Below are positions 17,454 to 43,432 of a stretch of 64,000 nt of DNA, one piece after another (position 1 is the stretch's first letter; each line of letters begins with the position of its first letter). The DNA comes from a virus. The position numbers were made by a program, and so were the translations under genes. The stretch is from positions 32,001 to 96,000 of IMG/VR virus record IMGVR_UViG_3300045988_175328; one strand, written 5' to 3'. The notes beneath the pieces were generated by a model. The model worked only from the letters and a program-made list of their open reading frames with translations. It did not search any database and was not told the DNA's origin.

Positions 17454-20400
17454 ATGAATTACAATAATATAACTCCAGAAATGGTTATGTCTATGGATTT
17501 ACAAGAGCTCGTAAAACTTGATTACGCTAAGCTTCCTGAAAAGTCAAAGCTTGCGGTAATTAAAAAAGACCCAGTTATGTGGGCTAAAGCTTTTATTTCT
17601 TCTTATTCAATTGAGCAAGAAGAATATGTTCCATGGACAGCCAGATGGTATCAAGCTGAAATGCTTAGAGATAGGAGTTTACGTAAAGTATATCGATGTG
17701 GTCGTCGGTGTATTGCCGGCGATACATTAATATATGATCCTGAAACTAATAGCTCTATTTCAGCTAAAGAATTGTTCGATACCCGACAGGATGATTTCTT
17801 TACAGTGGCTTGCTTGGATCATGATTTCAAAACAGAGCAGATGCCTCTAGCTAAAATATATGAAAATGGTGTAAAACAAGTATATACAATAACGACAGAA
17901 TACGATAAACAAATTACTGTTACAGAAAATCATCCATTCTTAACACAAGTAGGATGGAAAGAATTAAAACATCTTCGTGTTGGAAATTTAATTGCAGTCA
18001 TTCAAGACGAAGGTATTTTATCAAAGTATGTCGATATCGACAAACAAACAATTGAATTAATACAAAAAGAATTAAATAAAGAAGTAAGTATCGAAAGTTA
18101 TTCAGATCTAATGCTTTATGCAGAAGAGGCTGGACTTGAAACAGTTTACGATATTCTTGATGGCGATTTGGCATGGGAACGAATTAAATCAATTCGATTA
18201 CGTGGCACAGAAATGACATATGATGTGTCCGTACCAGAATATCATAATTTTATTGCGAATGGATTTATCACTCACAATACTGGTAAAACAGAAACAATGG
18301 TTATCGAAGCATTGTACAATTGTTTCACTCGAGATAACTTTGTTCATATGTTTGTAACGCCATACGAAAACCAAGTTCGATTAATTTTCGATAATTTAAA
18401 ATCTAAGATCGATTCCTCGCCAAGGATTCGAACAGCACTCACTCGGTCGACACGGTCGCCGTACGTGATGGAATTTAACAATAAATCAAAAATTGTTGGA
18501 TTTACAACGGGCGCAAGTTCTGGTAGTAGTGCTGCCTCTATCCGCGGATGGCGTAGTGACTGGATCTCACTCGATTAAATAATACTATTGTAATAGTTTA
18601 AATAGTCCATTTATTTGGTAACAAGTAAATGTTGAGTTAAATCTCAAGAGTCTATCTAATTGCTGGGAACCCCTAAAGCTTAAAGTGCCTTTGGGCTGCG
18701 AAAGCAGAAATAAATCTTTAAGATGATATATGGTTAAATCCTAAGTATTGTAAACAATGGGCAATCAGCAGCCAAGTTAGTATTATAATTAATATTAAAA
18801 GGTTCAACGACTATCCTGAGAAGGAGTACTATGTAAGCGCATAGGAAATGGTAGAAATCCTACAAAGGATTAAGATATAGTCTATGCTTTATCGAAAGAT
18901 AAAGGTGCGAGTAATGTCGCCGGCTAGAATTAGCGAATCTAGTTGAATTAATATCAGGAAATGGATAATTAAATAATAGTTCATTTAAAACGCCGTTAAA
19001 CAACGAAACTCCTAAGAAGGACAACGATGTACCAAGCTCATTAGTTAATAATGAGTAGTGTTCAACGACTAGGGATGAAATAAGCTCCCCACGAAAGCGG
19101 TGAAACCTACTACAGTCTTATCGTCAAGTTTTATTCTGTAGTACGGAAGACATAGTCTAAACTGGACCAGAACTGACTGGTCGATGAAAATGAAGGTAAC
19201 TTCCAGAGCGCAAGATAAAGAGCTTGCGGTTAATAACAAATTGTATCTAGGTGAAGGTGATTTCGACACAGTATATGCTCTTTGTATGGAACGTGCTAGT
19301 ATCGGAATGACATGTTCATCGACACCAACCGGTAGACGATCTAAGTTTTATGACATTTGTACTCAGAAGAGCCTCGGGTTAAAAATGGCCCCAATATTAA
19401 GCAATTAATGATTGAAAACCTTTTGAAATGCTGGGACTTCCTTTAAGGAAAATCAGCAGCGAAGCTTCTTAAATTTAAGAAGAACGTTCAACGACTATCC
19501 CATTTGGGAGTAGGGTCAAGCGACTCGAAGCAGAAGGCGTCCTATTGGGACGAAGATATAGTCTGAGCTACATAGAGATATGTAGAAGGTTGCAAGTAGC
19601 GAATGCAATCGTAACAATACTGTTAAAGAGCATTACCATCCCGCACAGCATAGTCCTCTATATTCTCCAGAAATGGAGAAAGAATTCAGGGCGACATTCG
19701 ATAAAAATGCGTATGTACATGAAGTACTTGCAGAATTTGGTATCGAAGAAGCTGGCGTGTTTGATAAAGAAGCTCTCGAAAGAGCGACTCGCATGGACAA
19801 TTATGTCTATAATGACGAGATCAAACCGGTACATAATGAATTTAATTTGCGCTCAGCAAAGAAAATTCACCTTCTTCCAGAAGGACAAACTACATATAAG
19901 TATAACATGTATAGAACTATGGCAGTTGACTGGGATAAATCGCAGGCGCCAACTTCTATACTCGTCTTAGATTATGACCACGAATGGAATAAATTCCGGG
20001 TCATTAATCGAACTATGATCGAGCCATCAGATTTTCATTATGACTTGGCGGTAAAAAAGATCATTAATTTAAATGCTATATATAATCCTACTCATATCTA
20101 TATTGATAGGGGCGCAGGTAAGTAACTTGCCTCAATATAAAGAAAGCACATATATTTATATTGGATAATGCGGAATTAAGCGAGAACTCTAAGTTAAATA
20201 ATATGAGAACTCGAACCGAAGGCATTGCTAAGTAATGTCAGGGGCAGAGCATAGAAGTTGAAAAGATATAATACTTCCACGAGTCCGCATCACAGTTGTG
20301 CTATTATACTGTGAAAAAATATGCCGAACTTACAGGAAACTATAAGAACTACAAGATAAAAAACTTGTAGGATAACAAATTGGAGTATCAGATAGAAGCT

Positions 20401-20961
20401 CTTAAAATATATGGGAAAGAGCATCCATCTTCCGGCCTCGACAAAAAAATAAAAGGATTTATGTTCTCCGAGAAAATTCCAGTACAAGATCCAATTACTG
20501 GGATGATGGTGAAGAAGCATTTAAAACCATATATGGTAACTCAGCTTTCGATACTTATCGAAAGAAATAATTTAATATTAAGTCCGTATGATAGTCATAT
20601 ATTTAAACAACTTATTGACTATCGTATTGAAAAAATAACACAGTCTGGTGTTCCTGTGTATACTAGCGTTAATGAGCATTTTGTCGATGCACTTGGTCTT
20701 GCTTATCTTGCTTTTGTTCAAAACTTTCCAGAGTTAACGAATCTTGTTAAAGAAGCAGAACATAGACCATGTATTAAAATATTCGACAAATCTCCATTAG
20801 CTTCATATGCAAAAAAAGATTTAGACAATCCATGGGATTCTCGTGGATCTTTTGAATCACCAGACGAAGCATGGCAAAAGGTTCCGATGAACGAACCTTT
20901 AATTTCAACTAAGAAAAAAGCATTTTCAAAAAGTAATTGGTTTAAGAGGTCTATGTTTTAA
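17454..20961 (+). CDS. terL: terminase large subunit, interrupted by one intein and four group I introns
   Basis: Proposed coding segments are 17454..17708 + 18279..18575 (joined by protein splicing), 18958..18966, 19244..19379, 19623..20119 and 20383..20961. They total 1773 nt (590 aa) in one frame. Walker A is reconstituted as CGRR-TGKTE. Walker B is DWISLDE(MDY). Other motifs: SSTPTGRRSKFYDI, and nuclease-domain-like MAVDWD, IYIDRGAG-EYQIE, NEHFVDALGLAY. Confidence 0.8.
17709..18278 (+). other. mini-intein (190 aa) inserted in the terminase P-loop
   Basis: Starts CIAGDTLI (block A), contains VTENHPFLT (block B, TxxH), ends YHNFIANGFITHN followed by the +1 Thr of TGKT. No LAGLIDADG or HNH motif was seen inside. 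Confidence 0.75.
18576..18957 (+). mobile_element. group I intron, ORF-less member of the IStron-related family (copy 1)
   Basis: Core elements are P AATTGCTGGGAAC (about 18657), Q CAATCAGCAGCC (about 18762), R GGTTCAACGACTATC (18801) and S AAGATATAGTCT (18872). P1 is GAT|TA paired with TAGTC, with a U-G wobble at the splice U (18575). It ends ATATCAG| at 18957. It aligns along its length with 39632-40068 and 42552-42935. Confidence 0.7.
18958..18966 (+). CDS. terL: 9-nt terL micro-exon (GAAATGGAT = Glu-Met-Asp)
   Basis: Lies between the 3' end of intron 1a (by analogy with copy 3) and the 5' splice site of intron 1b. AAATGGAT pairs 8/8 with GTTCATTT (18980-18987), with a U-G wobble at the last exon U. 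It keeps the frame and supplies the Walker B Glu. Confidence 0.5.
18967..19243 (+). mobile_element. group I intron (terL intron 1b), ORF-less
   Basis: R GTGTTCAACGACTAGG (about 19059) and S GGAAGACATAGTCT (about 19145). P9-type hairpins GACCAG..CTGGTC, GAAG-GTAA-CTTC and CGCAAG..CTTGCG. Ends ..AAATTG| and is followed in frame by YLGEGDFD. Confidence 0.6.
19380..19622 (+). mobile_element. group I intron (terL intron 2), td-like core, ORF-less
   Basis: P AAATGCTGGGAC (19427), Q AATCAGCAGCG (19451), R GTTCAACGACTATCCCATTTGGGAGTAGGGTCAAGCGACTCG (19486), S GAAGATATAGTCTG (19553). The 5' exon GGGT pairs with GCCC (U-G wobble). Ends ..CAATACTG|. Splicing gives ..QKSLG-F-KEHYHP.. in frame. Confidence 0.7.
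20120..20382 (+). mobile_element. probable group I intron (terL intron 3) with a divergent core
   Basis: P1 hairpin GGT|AAG-TAA-CTTGCC has a U-G wobble at the splice U (20119). Ends AAATTG| (20382). Joining gives IYIDRGAG-EYQIEALK in frame, which removes the in-frame stop at 20123. An S-like AAAGATATAATAC is present, but the R/P/Q elements are not canonical. Confidence 0.5.
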
Positions 20962-38528: not shown

Positions 38529-41500
38529 ATGGCATATCAAAATGACACTAGTGTAACAAGTGCATCTCAATACACTCGTTCTTACACTACTTTCTCTGGC
38601 TGTGATATCGTTGCAACTTTCGGATCCGAAGTTGTAGCTGAAGTACAAGGTATTACAGTTTCTATCAACCGTGAGAAAGCTCCGGTCAACAAACATTTTT
38701 GATATATGCTGAATCAAAACCTATAGGCCGGAGTAAAACTTTGCTAAAATCGGTGAAAGAGCACTAACACCGAGGATAAGAATATGATATAATAATATTG
38801 TGTTCAATGTCCGTAGAGACTTGAGACACTATTCTCTTAATGATGTATCCATTCCCAGCTAGGGAAATAACGGAGGTTTTTAATGAATGAAGTACTTGCT
38901 TGGTATTTAGGACTTAGTTACCAAGAAGATCAGTATCCAAGAAGTGTTGCCAGTGATTTACATAGTTATTTTATTCGCGGATTAGTTGAACAACTTAATC
39001 CATTTTATTATCGTGAAAAACGATCACTACTTATTTTGGATCTCGTATATCATTCAAAAGATGTTTTAGAATCGATAAAGAAAATTTTCAAAGAAAAATT
39101 ATTAATCGATTCTAAAGTTAAAGAGCTCGATAATAAATATATTTTAAATGTTTCTGGAAAGAATGCTAAAATTATTTTCTGGTGGTTATATCATGAAGAT
39201 TTTAGTACAAGTTATTCAGAAGAAATAGTAAATATATTAACAGATAAAGAAATAACTGATTTAAATAATATGAGCGACGACGATTCCTTACTTGAATTAA
39301 TCGGCGCTTATTATTCTGAAGATAATCATATTTCTTTTAATTGTCCTTATTATGAATCATTAGATCTAGCTAAAAAAGTAAGAAATTTACTTTCGTTTAA
39401 AACACAACCAGTGACTCATACAAAAGGAAAAAGAAAACATTATCAGCTTTATATTCCAAAAAACCAATCATTAATACGCAAAGCATCGAATGAGTAATCA
39501 TTCGTAAAGATATAGTCCACTTAATTGGGTTATACATTTGGTTCAGCTGAGCCTCGTTCTATCTCGAGAGGTAATAATAACTCTTTTGCTTCTCCTTTGC
39601 AGTAATGCAACGCATAATTAAACTCTGTGATTAAATGTGCTATACATACTTACAACTTAAGTCATGAGTAAGTAGCACGTATAGTCCACATATCTGGTAA
39701 CAGGTATGTGCCAAGTGGTAACACTCGGAGATTCACTGAATTGCTGGAAAGTCCTAAAGCTTGAATAACTACAACATAATATCGTACAAGTACGATATAA
39801 GCGTGAATGTTGCGAAAGCAGAAAAAATATTCAAGATGGTATATGGTTAAATCCTAAGTACTGTAGCAATGGACAATCAGCAGCCAAGCCCGTAAGGGAA
39901 GGTTCAACGACTATCCTGAGAAGGAGTAGGGCTCAAGCGAGTGGGTGAAAATCCCTTAAATCGAAGTAGTGAAGGTCCTTTAGAAAAGGATTAAGATATA
40001 GTCTGTGCTTTATCGAAAGATAAAGGTGCGCGCAGTGGCGCCGGCTAAGAGTAGCGATCTTAGTTGAACGAACAACTCTCATATAAACCCTACGGTTTTA
40101 TATATTGAAATTAACCTCCTAAAGTACTATAATAATAGTATATAGTTACGAAAGGAGGTGCCTCGTGAATAAAAGTTTTAAAGTAGAAATTTATCCAGAT
40201 CAAGATCAGGAAATTTTAATTGAGAAAACATTTGGCTGCGTAAGATATACTTACAATTTTATGTTAAATTTAAAACAACTTCTGTATAAAGAATTTGGAA
40301 TATCAATAACTTTAAATAGGATATCCAAAGTTCTTACGATGCTAAAAAAACTTAAGCCATGGCTTGCAGAAGTTGATAAATGTGCATTGCAATATGTTCT
40401 CAAAGATCTTTTTTTTGGATATGAAAAATTCTTTAATGGCGGAGGATTTCCTGAATTTAAAACTAAACGAGGGAAGAATTCTTATCGTACAAATAGTCGT
40501 TTACATTTAGATCAAGATAAAAAGATGATTAAGATCCCTAAAGTCGGCTGGATTAAGTTTAGAGATAAAAGTAAATTTATTGGTCTTAAAAAGATTTACA
40601 ATATCACTATTTCTAAAAGTGCTAGTGGAAAATATTTTGCCAGTATTTCAGCCGAAGTCGAAATCGAAGCTTTGCCTAAAACCAAAGTAAACTGCGGTAT
40701 CGACTTAGGATTAAAAGATTTTTGTATCTTGAACGATGGAACAGTATTTGAGAATCCTAAATTTTTGGCAAGTAAAGAAAAACGACTCAAAAGGTTACAA
40801 AAGTCTTTAAATCGAAAGAAACTAGGATCTAAGAATTATTTTAAAGTTAAAGCTAAAATAGTTAGACTTCATGAATATATAGCAAATTGTCGAAAAGATT
40901 ATCTGCACAAAATATCTATATTCTTAGTTAGAACTTATGATATTATTTGTGTTGAAACTCTAAAAGTTAAGAATATGCTTAAGAATCATAAGTTAGCTAA
41001 AGCTATTATTGACGTTAGTTGGTATGAATTTTGTCGACAGTTAGAATATAAATGTTTATGGTATGGAAAGAAATTTGTACAGATTGGGACTTATTTCGCA
41101 TCATCACAAACATGCTCTAATTGTGGCTTCAAGAATATAGAAGTTAAGAATCTTGATGTTCGAGAATGGAATTGTCCAGAATGTGGAGTTCATCACGATC
41201 GAGATATTAACGCAGCTATAAATATTCTCAACGAAGGCTTAAAATTAGCTTAATTTCAATATATAGAACCGCAGGGCATGCGGGGATAGCCTACTGTCTT
41301 AGTATAAGACGTATAGTGAATTTATATTTACTATACGCAACTATTGGGTAGGAACCTCGTCACTTTAAGTGGTGAGAGGATGTCAGATGCTGGAAACCCC
41401 TTAGAGCCTTTGGTACCAAAGTGTGACAATCTAAAGGATTGGGCAATCAGCAGGCAGCTTTATCTATTAGATATTGCGCCTCAACGACTATCCGTAAGGA

Positions 41501-43145
41501 GTACACCATAATAGCCGGTGGAAGCGCAGAGCTCCCTAGAATAATATAGGTATTGCTATATTCTCCTTTTTGTATTATAATAAATATATAAGGAGGTCTT
41601 AAATATGGCGCAATACAATTATAATTTTGATATTTTAGAAAAAGAATCACCTGAAAAATATTATTTTCTTGGCTTTATCGCAGCAGATGGAGCATTAACA
41701 AATGGCGGAATTGTTTTTGAACTAAACAAGAGAGATGGATATATGGTAAAGAAATTAAATGATTACATATGTCCTGAAAAAGAAGTTAAGTTTAGAGAAG
41801 AAACAAATTCTTGTCGAGCAACATTTTATAATCTTGAAATGACAAAGAAACTAAAAAAATATTTTTCAATGACAAGCAATAGAAAAACCGAAGAGATTAG
41901 ATTCCCAGAAGTACCAGATGAATATCTTCGAGATTTTATTCGTGGGATCATCGATGGTGATGGAACTATCGATACGACTAAAGGATACAAAGGAAATAAA
42001 ATTTATATTGGTGCTCGACTTCGAATCTTAGGTAATGAAATTTTTCTAAAAGAATTAAATGAGAAAACAAAATTATTATATCCACATAATACAAATGCTG
42101 TAAACAGAAAAGGTAAGGAAAATATACATATTATAACTTATAACTTTAAAACAGCGCGCGAATTATTGAAAATAATATATTATGACGGATGCCTATGTTT
42201 AAAACGAAAATTCGATCGTTCTAGGGATGAAGATATAGTCTCTACATTAGTGAGAGCTAAATGATAATCATTCTCAAAAAAAGAGGGATCGCCGGCACTA
42301 TTGTATTCACACTATTTGATCGTGATGCATTAGTCGACGCATTGGCTATTCGCGCAGCAAAAGCTGCGTATTTCCAACGTATTGGTGGTGATATCAATTA
42401 CCAACCATACACAATTACTGAATGGGATACTAAATTGACAGATATGGTAGTTAATACTTTATCTTCCAGTAACAGTTCCCAAATTGCATCCAGTAATCCA
42501 TTTAAACTTACTCAAAAAGTAGCTGTTCAATCTACTCCTAAATACTCCGATTATTCTTAATATAGTCCGTATGTTTAGTAATAAGCATATGTTAAACATA
42601 AATGTTTAAGGTCTCATCGAATTGCTGAAAACCCGTAAAGCTTAAAACGCTACAGCATAATTTTGAAAAACAAATAAGTGCGATAGTAACGAAAGTAAAA
42701 AAAGTTTTAAGATAGCGTATGGTTAAATCCTAAGCGCCACAACAATTGGCAATCAGCAGCGAAGCTCCAAATAGGAGAACGTTCAACGACTAGAGCAAGA
42801 TGCTCGTACACTCAAGCGAGTGGAAGTGGTGAGGGCCCATTTGATGGGTCAAGATATAGTCTATGCCTTAGTGAAAATTAAGGGAGCAACAATTTGTTGC
42901 CAAATAATAGTAGCGATATTATTTGAATATAACAGGAAATTCCGCCATTTGACATTACTTTATCTTTTGCAAATGAGTATGGTCAATCGGCAGTAATGGT
43001 TATCTACGGCGTAGAGATCTTAAATGAAGCTTCTAGTTTCTCTGTAGATTCTACTACGACTGATAAAGCATGTACTTACATTGCTCGTTCTGTAGATTAC
43101 TTGCAACCAGTAGAAAACAAATACTTATTGAATAACAATTACTAA
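38529..43145 (+). CDS. tail tube protein, split into four exons by four self-splicing elements
   Basis: Exons are 38529..38686, 39530..39572, about 42279..42551 (alternative starts 42264 or 42288) and 42936..43145, totalling 684 nt (227 aa). The joined product is [67 protein letters not shown]... It is colinear with the N-terminal domain of the paralog at 43429 (..[61 protein letters not shown]). It lies directly after the sheath gene. No SD sits close to the ATG. Confidence 0.75.
38687..39529 (+). mobile_element. group I intron A of the tube gene (carries ORF 38883..39497)
   Basis: P1: exon CTCCGGT pairs 7/7 with GCCGGAG (38727-38733), with a U-G wobble at the splice U (38686). R-like TGTTCAATGTCCGTAGAGACT (38802) and S AAAGATATAGTCC (39506). 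Ends ..AATTGGG| only 11 nt after S. The ORF sits between R and S. Confidence 0.6.
38883..39497 (+). CDS. intron-encoded protein (LAGLIDADG-like or maturase-like; acidic catalytic motif not evident)
   Basis: RBS ACGGAGG. The only motif-like segments are WYLGLSY and YFIRGLVEQ. It has a paralog at 38004..38474. Confidence 0.55.
   Translation: MNEVLAWYLGLSYQEDQYPRSVASDLHSYFIRGLVEQLNPFYYREKRSLLILDLVYHSKDVLESIKKIFKEKLLIDSKVKELDNKYILNVSGKNAKIIFWWLYHEDFSTSYSEEIVNILTDKEITDLNNMSDDDSLLELIGAYYSEDNHISFNCPYYESLDLAKKVRNLLSFKTQPVTHTKGKRKHYQLYIPKNQSLIRKASNE
40105..40133 (+). promoter_or_regulatory. sigma70-type promoter for tnpB (TTGAAA-17 nt-TATAAT)
   Basis: TTGAAA 40105-40110, 17-nt spacer, TATAAT 40128-40133, 32 nt upstream of the GTG start. 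Confidence 0.45.
40165..41253 (+). CDS. tnpB: TnpB (IS200/IS605-family OrfB, RuvC-type RNA-guided nuclease)
   Basis: GTG start after AAAGGAGG. Ruv[12 protein letters not shown], Ruv[14 protein letters not shown], zinc finger CSNCG..CPECG, Ruv[16 protein letters not shown]. Confidence 0.85.
41230..41386 (+). ncRNA. candidate TnpB omega RNA scaffold / transposon right end (5' boundary approximate)
   Basis: A 133-nt non-coding tail follows tnpB, with hairpins CCGCAGGGCATGCGGGG and CCTCGTCAC-TTTAA-GTGGTGAGAGG just before the proposed element end at 41386. The guide would be read from 41387 onward (ATGCTGGAAACCCC..). Confidence 0.4.
41605..42264 (+). CDS. LAGLIDADG homing endonuclease (two-motif, monomeric type), encoded in intron C
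   Basis: RBS TAAGGAGG. Motifs [13 protein letters not shown] and [13 protein letters not shown]. The 3' end of the ORF overlaps the intron S element. Confidence 0.8.
   Translation: MAQYNYNFDILEKESPEKYYFLGFIAADGALTNGGIVFELNKRDGYMVKKLNDYICPEKEVKFREETNSCRATFYNLEMTKKLKKYFSMTSNRKTEEIRFPEVPDEYLRDFIRGIIDGDGTIDTTKGYKGNKIYIGARLRILGNEIFLKELNEKTKLLYPHNTNAVNRKGKENIHIITYNFKTARELLKIIYYDGCLCLKRKFDRSRDEDIVSTLVRAK
42552..42935 (+). mobile_element. group I intron, ORF-less member of the IStron-related family (copy 3)
   Basis: Inserted after TCCGAT (42551). P1 is GAT|TAT paired with ATAGTC, with a U-G wobble at the splice U. P ATTGCTGAAAACCC (42621), Q AATCAGCAGCG (42750), R GTTCAACGACTAG (42781), S AAGATATAGTCT (42851). 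Ends TATAACAG| (42935). Joining gives [15 protein letters not shown], matching the paralog's YLMD-ELPNFDITLSF. Confidence 0.75.
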
Positions 43146-43195: not shown

Positions 43196-43432
43196 TTGGA
43201 AAATACGAATCAAGTCTTTCTGTATCTAAACAAAGTTTTAGATGATTATATTAAAGAAGCTGTTCAACGAAGAGTTTCTTTAGACGAAGCTAATCTTGAG
43301 ATGAAAGAAGTTTGTCTTAAAGAATTAGAGCAAAGATCAATAGAGCTTAAACCACATATAAAAACACTTGTTGAAAATAGAGTTAAACAATATCTTAAAG
43401 TCTACCACTTAAAAGTGAGGTATTTAAAATGA
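43196..43432 (+). CDS. hypothetical protein
   Basis: TTG start 7 nt after GAGGT; ATGA coupling to the next gene. Confidence 0.45.
   Translation: MENTNQVFLYLNKVLDDYIKEAVQRRVSLDEANLEMKEVCLKELEQRSIELKPHIKTLVENRVKQYLKVYHLKVRYLK

What the first reader, a model, noticed from the sequence alone, without database searches (positions are those of the whole stretch)
18958..18966. 9-nt micro-exon (E-M-D) between two back-to-back introns carrying the Walker B glutamate
Seen: by analogy with copy 3, intron 1a ends at CAG (18957). The next 9 nt, GAAATGGAT, are followed by a second intron. That intron's internal guide GTTCATTT (18980-18987) pairs 8/8 with AAATGGAT, placing a U-G wobble on the last exon U (18966). 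Product: ..DWISLD-EMD-YLGEGDFD... Inference: two independent introns invaded sites 9 nt apart in the catalytic Walker B region. The alternative reading is a single 668-nt composite intron, but that would need a non-G 3' end to stay in frame.
Basis: inference. Interest (0 to 1): 0.6.

Follow-up and report, generated by a model that had tools for sequence, protein, structure and literature searches.

The report
Nine-base exon between two introns
The DNA-packaging motor gene of a 227-kb phage is cut by two unrelated self-splicing introns only nine bases apart, and those nine bases encode the enzyme's catalytic glutamate; it is real, but it is an extreme example of a known arrangement.

Summary
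Confirmed. The only terL gene of this 227-kb phage (17454-20961, +) is split by one intein and four group I introns.

Intron 1 (18576-18957) and intron 2 (18967-19243) are separate ribozymes. The 9 nt between them, GAAATGGAT (18958-18966), encode E-M-D.

- All 120 full-length uninterrupted homologs read D-E-[VCIML]-D-[YF]-[ML] there, without a gap.
- An unconstrained profile scan of the 668-nt interval ranks this 9-mer first of 2,847 candidates.
- Relatives show all four states of the two sites. L016 has an intron only at LD|E. L017 has one only at EMD|Y. The 120 homologs have neither, and the window has both.
- Intron 2 belongs to a lineage resident at this GAT|TAT site in at least seven other phage terL genes. 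In that lineage the internal guide covaries with the exon codon.
- Intron 1 belongs to a different family that is multi-copy in this genome.

The guide is at 18979-18986, not 18980-18987. Removing all 668 nt would stay in frame and end in G; it would simply delete E-M-D.

No RNA data could be obtained, so splicing itself is inferred.

Mini-exons between group I introns are known in organelles and in some phages. Unverified earlier notes of this scan report 13-, 14- and 33-nt cases on other DNA.

The parts
17454..18575 (+). terL exon 1; ends ..GAC TGG ATC TCA CTC GAT (DWISLD, first half of Walker B)
   Evidence: ORF list; spliced frame; alignment to uninterrupted TerL
17709..18278 (+). 190-aa intein (CIAGD...THN|T) inside the Walker A loop GRR|TGKT
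   Evidence: Pfam Intein_splicing, E 2e-22. Removing it restores GRRTGKT, aligned with homologs.
18576..18957 (+). Intron 1, group I, 382 nt, no ORF. P1 is G18573-A-U18575|U-A18577 paired with U18603-A-G-U-C18607 (U18575.G18605). It ends in G18957 and starts with an in-frame TAA.
   Evidence: Rfam RF00028 86 bits. It has paralogs in this genome. The paralog at window 42552-42935 has the same GAU|UA...UAGUC P1 and the ending ..AACAG|GAAAU, and its D|E junction is fixed by an intact paralogous protein.
18958..18966 (+). Micro-exon GAAATGGAT = Glu-Met-Asp (Walker B catalytic Glu plus the invariant Asp)
   Evidence: Rank 1 of 2,847 in the profile mini-exon scan: 226.2 bits, next 223.1, skipped 210.3. 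120/120 homologs read D-E-x-D-[YF]. The same codons are contiguous with the upstream exon in L017 and with the downstream exon in L016.
18967..19243 (+). Intron 2, group I, 277 nt, no ORF. It starts AAT TAA (in-frame stop) and ends in G19243.
   Evidence: Rfam 46.2 bits, E 4.6e-10. It is 74-76% identical over about 270 nt to introns at the same GAT|TAT site in L019 and L024. The consensus fold has 35 of 65 pairs with compensatory changes. Its 3' domain and the distance to the 3' splice site match an AR9 gyrA intron whose 3' junction I placed by the conserved GyrA motif.
18979..18986 (+). Internal guide sequence of intron 2 (GUUCAUUU), pairing with A18959-U18966 of the micro-exon to form P1
   Evidence: MFE fold forms this helix. 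Orthologs: 91% of cells paired against 16-54% when the partner is slid; the U.G splice-site pair is present in 7/7; two pairs show compensatory changes. Chance about 0.001.
19244..19379 (+). terL exon 3 (YLGEGDFD...TQKSLG + T)
19380..19622 (+). Intron 3, group I, 243 nt
   Evidence: Rfam 91.4 bits. The site is empty in L016, which reads SLGFNEHYH without interruption.
19623..20119 (+). terL exon 4
20120..20382 (+). Intron 4, divergent group I, 263 nt. P1 is 20116-20122 paired with 20126-20132, with U20119.G20129.
   Evidence: Rfam 25.8 bits, E 6e-4. It is 83% identical over 251 nt to the intron at the same site in L016, which carries an ORF with only a faint LAGLIDADG_3 Pfam hit.
20383..20961 (+). 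terL exon 5 (EYQIEAL... to the stop codon)

Best explanation
A true 9-nt exon lies between two separate, ORF-less group I introns in the phage's only terL gene.

Each ribozyme defines its own splice sites.
- Intron 1 pairs the exon-1 end GAU (plus its own first two bases, UA) with its guide UAGUC. GTP attacks after U18575, and exon 1 is then joined to G18958 after the terminal G18957.
- Intron 2 pairs eight of the nine micro-exon bases (AAAUGGAU) with its guide GUUCAUUU. It is cut after U18966 and released after G19243.

Neither P1 needs sequence from the other intron, so either intron can go first. The mature mRNA reads ..CTC GAT|GAA ATG GAT|TAT CTA.., which gives the Walker B motif WISLDEMDY.

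Historically these are two independent insertions. Intron 2 belongs to a lineage resident at the DExD|Y site of this TerL clade. Elsewhere that lineage often carries a conserved ORF (faint LAGLIDADG_3 match, likely a homing endonuclease) in its P1 loop. Intron 1 belongs to a family that has spread within this genome to sites resembling ACTC(C)GAT|GAAAT.

Shown: the anatomy, the conservation, the presence/absence pattern and the P1 covariation. Inferred: that both ribozymes actually splice, and the order in which they do.
For: - Two full-length group I matches with 9 nt between the inferred ends.
- The spliced frame is intact: 590 aa after intein removal, the same length as the homologs.
- 120/120 homologs read D-E-[VCIML]-D-[YF]-[ML] with no gap. 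Named phages agree: 0305phi8-36 LDEMDYMGE, Moorella MTATph1 LDEIDYM.
- The profile scan puts this 9-mer first of 2,847 candidates.
- L016 has an intron at LD|E only, with GAAATGGAC-TATCTAGG contiguous.
- L017 has DWISLDEMD contiguous, followed by an insert 76% identical over 759 nt to the L019 intron.
- Intron 2 has orthologs at GAT|TAT in L019-L024 and L106.
- The guide covaries with the exon: AAAUGGAU/GUUCAUUU, AAUUGGAU/GUUCAAUU, AAGUGGAU/GUUCACU, AGUUGGAU/GUUCAACU.
- Intron 1 has paralogs in the genome and intron 2 has none.
- A paralog of intron 1 uses the same GAU|...CAG|GAAAU junctions, checked against an intact paralogous protein.
- There is only one terL in the complete genome.
Against:
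- The genome is a metagenome assembly, so viability is assumed.
- Intron 2 scores just under Rfam's gathering threshold (46.2 against 50), although its ortholog in L023 scores 55.4.
- P10 pairings are weak: 3 bp for intron 2, and 4 bp with a 3-nt spacer for intron 1 (my reading of the sequence).
- The covariation sample is small: 7 sequences, and 5-6 of 500 shuffles reach the observed value.
Confidence: 0.88

Rival explanations
1. One composite 668-nt intervening sequence (a nested twintron, or intron 1 with a dead intron remnant in its tail) is removed as a unit, joining U18575 directly to U19244 with no micro-exon.
For: The removal would stay in frame and end in G19243. Exon skipping between neighbouring phage group I introns has been seen experimentally (SIOphi; Twort orf142 as cited in PMC11878797). 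An earlier first-stage note read the second core as degenerate.
Against: - The product would lack the Glu and Asp that are invariant in 120/120 homologs and scores 16 bits lower.
- Intron 1 is complete before 18957, through P9.2, as its paralogs show.
- Intron 2 is a complete ortholog of free-standing introns at this site.
- Nothing of either intron is interrupted by the other.
- This is the only terL in the genome.
Confidence: 0.04
2. The anatomy is as described, but one of the introns (most likely intron 2, or the divergent intron 4) no longer self-splices. Either terL is a pseudogene in a defective assembled genome, or splicing needs a host or phage protein.
For: Intron 2 is below Rfam's gathering score and intron 4 is far below it. 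Some Bastillevirinae introns spliced only in vivo (PMC11878797). The genome comes from a metagenome.
Against: All exons are intact, in frame and conserved. Intron 2 keeps every column that is invariant among its orthologs, and its helices are kept by compensatory changes. The record is rated 100% complete with terminal repeats.
Confidence: 0.07

Closest known systems
Mini-exons between group I introns in fungal and other mitochondrial genes (e.g. cox1), as handled by MFannot (PMC10352661)
   Same: Exons shorter than about 4 codons lie between self-splicing introns. They are found by noting missing conserved residues and scanning for the best-fitting short sequence, which is the test I ran.
   Different: Those are organellar genes. 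Here the gene is an essential phage gene, and the 9 nt carry the Walker B catalytic Glu and supply 8 of the 8 exon bases of the next intron's P1.
[quoted passage not shown]
   Same: Firmicute-phage core genes with two or three group I introns, a small internal exon found only by cDNA reads, and skipping of an internal exon.
   Different: I could not find the size of that exon in the text or in the held supplements. Those cases have experimental cDNA and this one has none.
Staphylococcus phage Twort orf142, with three group I introns and exon skipping (Landthaler and Shub 1999, cited in PMC11878797; the paper itself is not held)
   Same: Several closely spaced self-splicing group I introns in one phage structural gene.
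   Different: Different gene and different intron lineages. I could not check the exon sizes.
24-nt Walker B exon in metagenomic relatives L024 (IMG/VR UViG_3300031867_005538) and L106
   Same: Same TerL clade and the same intron-2 lineage at DExD|Y, with a second intron just upstream, so that a tiny exon carries Walker B.
   Different: There the upstream intron sits at RAD|W, leaving 24 nt (W-[IL]-F-[LM]-D-E-L-D). Here it sits at LD|E, leaving 9 nt.
Bacillus phage AR9/PBS1 gyrA introns
   Same: They share the P9-P9.2 3' domain with intron 2 (78% over 81 nt). The 3' splice site is 15 nt after the last hairpin: GGUUAAUAAC + 5 nt + G.
   Different: Different gene, and the 5' half and core are not alignable by BLAST.

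Membership tests
Group I self-splicing intron (Rfam RF00028): intron 2 | Conserved catalytic core (P3-P8) recognised by the covariance model | tested here: inconclusive
   46.2-46.7 bits, E 4.6e-10 to 8e-12, against a gathering score of 50. The ortholog in L023 scores 55.4 bits.
Group I self-splicing intron (Rfam RF00028): intron 2 | 5' splice site after a U that forms a U.G pair in P1 with an internal guide near the intron's 5' end | tested here: met
   U18966.G18979. The U.G pair is present in 7/7 orthologs, the helix is 91% paired, and there are compensatory changes at two positions.
Group I self-splicing intron (Rfam RF00028): intron 2 | Terminal G at the 3' splice site | tested here: met
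   G19243 comes directly before TAT (Tyr). The same holds in L019-L024 and in AR9 gyrA.
Group I self-splicing intron (Rfam RF00028): intron 2 | Helices maintained by covariation | tested here: met
   RNAalifold on 5 orthologs: 35 of 65 pairs show a compensatory change.
Group I self-splicing intron (Rfam RF00028): introns 1 and 2 | GTP-dependent self-splicing | not testable with these tools
Group I self-splicing intron (Rfam RF00028): intron 1 | Covariance-model score above gathering, U.G in P1, terminal G | tested here: met
   86 bits; U18575.G18605 and G18957 read from the sequence. The same junction type in the paralog at 42552-42935 is checked by protein continuity.
Mini-exon flanked by two group I introns | The short sequence supplies conserved residues that are otherwise missing, and is flanked by a 3' splice-site G and a 5' splice-site U | tested here: met
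   E and D are invariant in 120/120 homologs. Rank 1 of 2,847. G18957 precedes it and U18966 ends it.
Mini-exon flanked by two group I introns | Each flanking intron occurs on its own in relatives | tested here: met
   L016 has only the upstream site occupied. L017, L019, L020, L021, L022 and L023 have only the downstream site occupied.
Nested twintron (an intron inside an intron) | The inner intron interrupts the outer intron, which cannot fold or splice until the inner one is removed; no coding sequence lies between them | tested here: not met
   Both cores are complete and non-overlapping, and 9 coding bases required by the protein lie between them.
Large terminase, T4-type ATPase (Pfam Terminase_6N) | Walker A GxxGKT, Walker B hhhhDE, and full-length homology to known TerL | tested here: met
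   PF03237 at 24.4 bits against a cut-off of 22. 40% identity over 88% of the query to Moorella phage MTATph1 TerL. GRRTGKT and WISLDE are present after splicing.

The most novel reading that the evidence does not exclude
The 9-nt exon acts as a skippable cassette. Because skipping it stays in frame, joining exon 1 directly to exon 3 would give a full-length TerL that lacks the catalytic Glu. Such a subunit could poison or time the multimeric packaging motor, so the ratio of the two splice products would regulate packaging. A weaker version: this is the shortest exon yet seen in a phage or bacterial gene, and the two ribozymes influence each other's splice-site choice through the shared AAAU bases.
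Probability: 0.1. Interest if true: 0.7.

Novelty: new member of a known kind. Interest (0 to 1): 0.42.

Why it matters
Gene callers and intron finders will miss a 9-nt exon. They would annotate this terL as broken, or as carrying one 668-nt intron and lacking its catalytic glutamate.

The case also shows how tightly selfish elements can pack. This TerL clade has at least four intron sites within about 17 codons around Walker B, plus an intein in Walker A.

The nine bases are under three constraints at once. They encode two invariant residues, they form the P1 helix of the downstream intron, and they are the 3' exon of the upstream intron.

This gives a compact natural substrate for testing splicing order and exon skipping between adjacent group I ribozymes.

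Tried and rejected
- Megablast of the gene against phage records found nothing.
- A close-relative scan of IMG/VR with the spliced protein found nothing.
- Landthaler and Shub 1999 (PMC22036) is not held.
- The size of the phiNIT1 small exon could not be found in the text or supplements. The Agaricus cox1 paper gave no exon sizes in its text.
- Global pairwise identities between introns were uninformative, all 72-89% under cheap gaps. I replaced them with BLAST.
- RNAalifold on MAFFT-aligned orthologs did not recover P1, because the short 5' exon was misaligned. I therefore counted P1 on a cut-down alignment with the L1 loops removed.
- The metagenome pattern scan returned mostly introns in other genes or chance hits. 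Only L051, L106 and L131 were in terL.
- I considered the Clostridium phage vB_CpeS-1181 terL intron as an ortholog at the same site. I rejected this: that TerL is of another family and the site corresponds to D|D of its Walker B. Only the 3' domain is shared.
- The L016 intron at LD|E is not clearly orthologous to intron 1. It is nearer to intron 3.

Full report
**What is there.** The window is bases 32001-96000 of a 227,219-bp IMG/VR phage record with direct terminal repeats, rated 100% complete. Its large terminase gene runs from 17454 to 20961 on the + strand, in five pieces.

- Exon 1 (17454-18575) holds a 190-aa intein in the Walker A loop (Pfam Intein_splicing, E 2e-22).
- Rfam finds four group I introns in the gaps: 18605-18904 (86 bits), 18939-19180 (46.2 bits, E 4.6e-10), 19370-19585 (91.4 bits) and 20110-20346 (25.8 bits).
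- With exons at 17454-18575, 18958-18966, 19244-19379, 19623-20119 and 20383-20961, the CDS is 2,343 nt and in frame. It is 590 aa after intein removal.
- tblastn finds no second terL in the genome.

**The observation.** It holds.

- G18957 ends intron 1, and GAAATGGAT fills 18958-18966.
- It pairs with A18959-U18966 at 8 of 8 positions. Two pairs are wobbles, one of which is the splice-site pair U18966.G18979.
- The minimum-free-energy fold forms this helix and the expected P3-P9.2 hairpins.
- A guide of this quality in the first 60 intron bases arises in about 0.1% of shuffles.

**Is the 9-nt exon required?**

- Known uninterrupted TerL proteins align across the junction without a gap: Moorella MTATph1 LDEIDYM, Bacillus 0305phi8-36 LDEMDYMGE, KLEB27-3 LDEVDYLGD.
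- Among 120 full-length database homologs (46-53% identity, about 590 aa), every one reads D-E-[VCIML]-D-[YF]-[ML]. The Glu and the second Asp are invariant.
- I built a profile from those homologs and scored every stop-free insert of 3-18 nt from anywhere in 18576-19243 between exons 1 and 3. GAAATGGAT at 18958 came first of 2,847 candidates: 226.2 bits, next 223.1, mean 212.2 with sd 2.6, no insert 210.3.

**Are these two independent introns?** Yes.

- Intron 1 has BLAST-level paralogs in this genome, and intron 2 has none.
- Relatives supply all four states of the two sites.
  - L016 has a TerL about 70% identical over the aligned part of exon 1 and also carries an intein. It has a group I intron (78 bits) after ..TCACTGGAT, then reads GAAATGGAC TATCTAGGC.. 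without interruption. It also lacks intron 3.
  - L017 reads GATTGGATCTCCTTGGATGAAATGGAT without interruption. It then carries an insert 76% identical over 759 nt to the ORF-bearing intron of L019.
  - The 120 full-length homologs have neither intron.
- Intron 2 aligns over nearly its full length with the introns at the same GAT|TAT site in L019 (76% of 271 nt) and L024 (74% of 276 nt). It aligns more weakly with those of L020-L023.
- A consensus fold of five ORF-less members has 35 of 65 pairs with compensatory changes.
- In the ORF-bearing members (L019, L022, L106, L017) a conserved ORF sits in the P1 loop; it has only a faint LAGLIDADG_3 Pfam match on record. Intron 2 is therefore an ORF-less member of that lineage.

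**P1 covariation.** The middle codon of D-E-x-D differs among these phages, and the guide follows it.

| Exon bases | Guide | Source |
|---|---|---|
| AAAUGGAU | GUUCAUUU | window, L019 |
| AAUUGGAU | GUUCAAUU | L020 |
| AAGUGGAU | GUUCACU | L021 |
| AGUUGGAU | GUUCAACU | L024 |

On the seven-sequence alignment, 91% of cells pair, against 16-54% when the 3' strand is slid. The U.G splice-site pair is present in 7 of 7. One position shows three pair types. The sample is small: 5-6 of 500 shuffles reach the observed values.

**Intron 1 boundaries.**

- The 5' site follows U18575, which pairs with G18605 in the helix GAUUA/UAGUC (my reading).
- The paralog at window 42552-42935 has the same GAU|UA...UAGUC arrangement and ends ..AACAG|GAAAUUCC.
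- Its D|E junction matches the intact paralogous protein at 43429 (MDELPNFDITL against SD|EIPPFDITL).
- The two target sites resemble each other: ACTCGAT|GAAATGG and ACTCCGAT|GAAATTCC.
- The 3' end of intron 2 matches a Bacillus phage AR9 gyrA intron. I placed the 3' junction of that intron by the conserved GyrA motif (DAHG|NFGS). In both introns the splice site lies at GGUUAAUAAC + 5 nt + G.

**Mechanism.**

- Each ribozyme has its own P1 and its own terminal G. Intron 1's P1 uses only exon 1 and intron 1. Intron 2's P1 uses only the micro-exon and intron 2. Either order of removal should therefore work.
- Both introns open with an in-frame stop (TAA; AAT TAA), as do introns 3 and 4.
- P10 pairings are weak: UAU/AUA for intron 2, and AAAU/GUUU with a 3-nt spacer for intron 1. 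The second would compete with intron 2's P1 for the same exon bases.
- This whole section is inference, because no RNA data were available.

The real objection is the loss of the invariant Glu and Asp. Since skipping is in frame, an ATPase-dead TerL is a conceivable by-product. Exon skipping between phage group I introns has been seen experimentally (PMC11878797).

**Context and novelty.**

- Truncated TerL ORFs in the database show that the Walker B neighbourhood of this clade is an intron hot spot. About 32 clusters end after DExD, about 30 after RGQxxD, about 15 just before RGQ, and 2 after the first Asp.
- L024 and L106 carry a 24-nt exon (W-[IL]-F-[LM]-D-E-L-D) between an upstream intron and the intron-2 lineage.
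- Mini-exons under about 4 codons "occur regularly" in mitochondrial genes (PMC10352661).
- A small exon between two introns was reported in phage phiNIT1 (PMC11878797).
- Earlier notes of this scan, which I did not check, report 13-, 14- and 33-nt micro-exons in other phages.
- This is therefore a clear and extreme new member of a known kind, not a new kind.

Noticed in passing
L024:2261-2284 and L106 (reverse strand, bases 97-120 of the reverse complement): Two metagenomic relatives have a 24-nt exon, TGG..GAT (W-[IL]-F-[LM]-D-E-L-D, the whole Walker B). It lies between an upstream intron-3-like group I intron at RAD|W and the intron-2-type intron.
   Followed up: partly
proteins P0121-P0240: Truncated TerL ORFs point to four intron sites within about 17 codons: before RGQ (about 15 clusters), after RGQxxD (about 30), after hhhhD (2) and after DExD (about 32). 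Some may be contig-end truncations.
   Followed up: partly
window 39632-41253: A member of the intron-1 family (Rfam 82.6 bits at 39684-40025) is followed by a 362-aa ORF (40165-41253) that I read by eye as TnpB-like. The arrangement looks IStron-like. No domain search was run.
   Followed up: no
window 18561-18575/18958-18964 and 42537-42551/42936-42943: Intron 1 and its paralog sit in look-alike targets, ACTCGAT|GAAATGG (terL) and ACTCCGAT|GAAATTCC (a structural-gene paralog). This suggests spread to ectopic sites by sequence similarity, either reverse splicing or a shared endonuclease.
   Followed up: partly
window 20116-20132: Intron 4's P1 can be drawn as AGGU|AAG with CUUGCCU, which gives the canonical U20119.G20129 pair.
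   Followed up: partly
whole genome G000: At least 12 RF00028 matches (10 above the gathering score) occur in one 227-kb phage genome, all on the + strand.
   Followed up: no
L014 (Clostridium phage vB_CpeS-1181, record bases about 1505-2710): An unrelated TerL is split at IIAD|DY of its own Walker B by a 1,206-nt ORF-bearing intron. The P9-P9.2 domain of that intron is about 80% identical to intron 2. The record annotates two separate 'terminase large subunit' CDSs.
   Followed up: partly
alignment A2, columns 32-36 with 328-332 (window 18976-18980 with about 19231-19235): RNAalifold pairs UAGUU, which straddles the 5' end of the guide, with AAUAA close to the 3' splice site in all five orthologs. 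It could be a P9.0/P10-like contact or an artefact.
   Followed up: no
L015 (Bacillus phage AR9 gyrA): Two introns with intron-2-like 3' domains lie about 100 nt apart in gyrA, flanking the exon EYHPHGN...DAHG.
   Followed up: no
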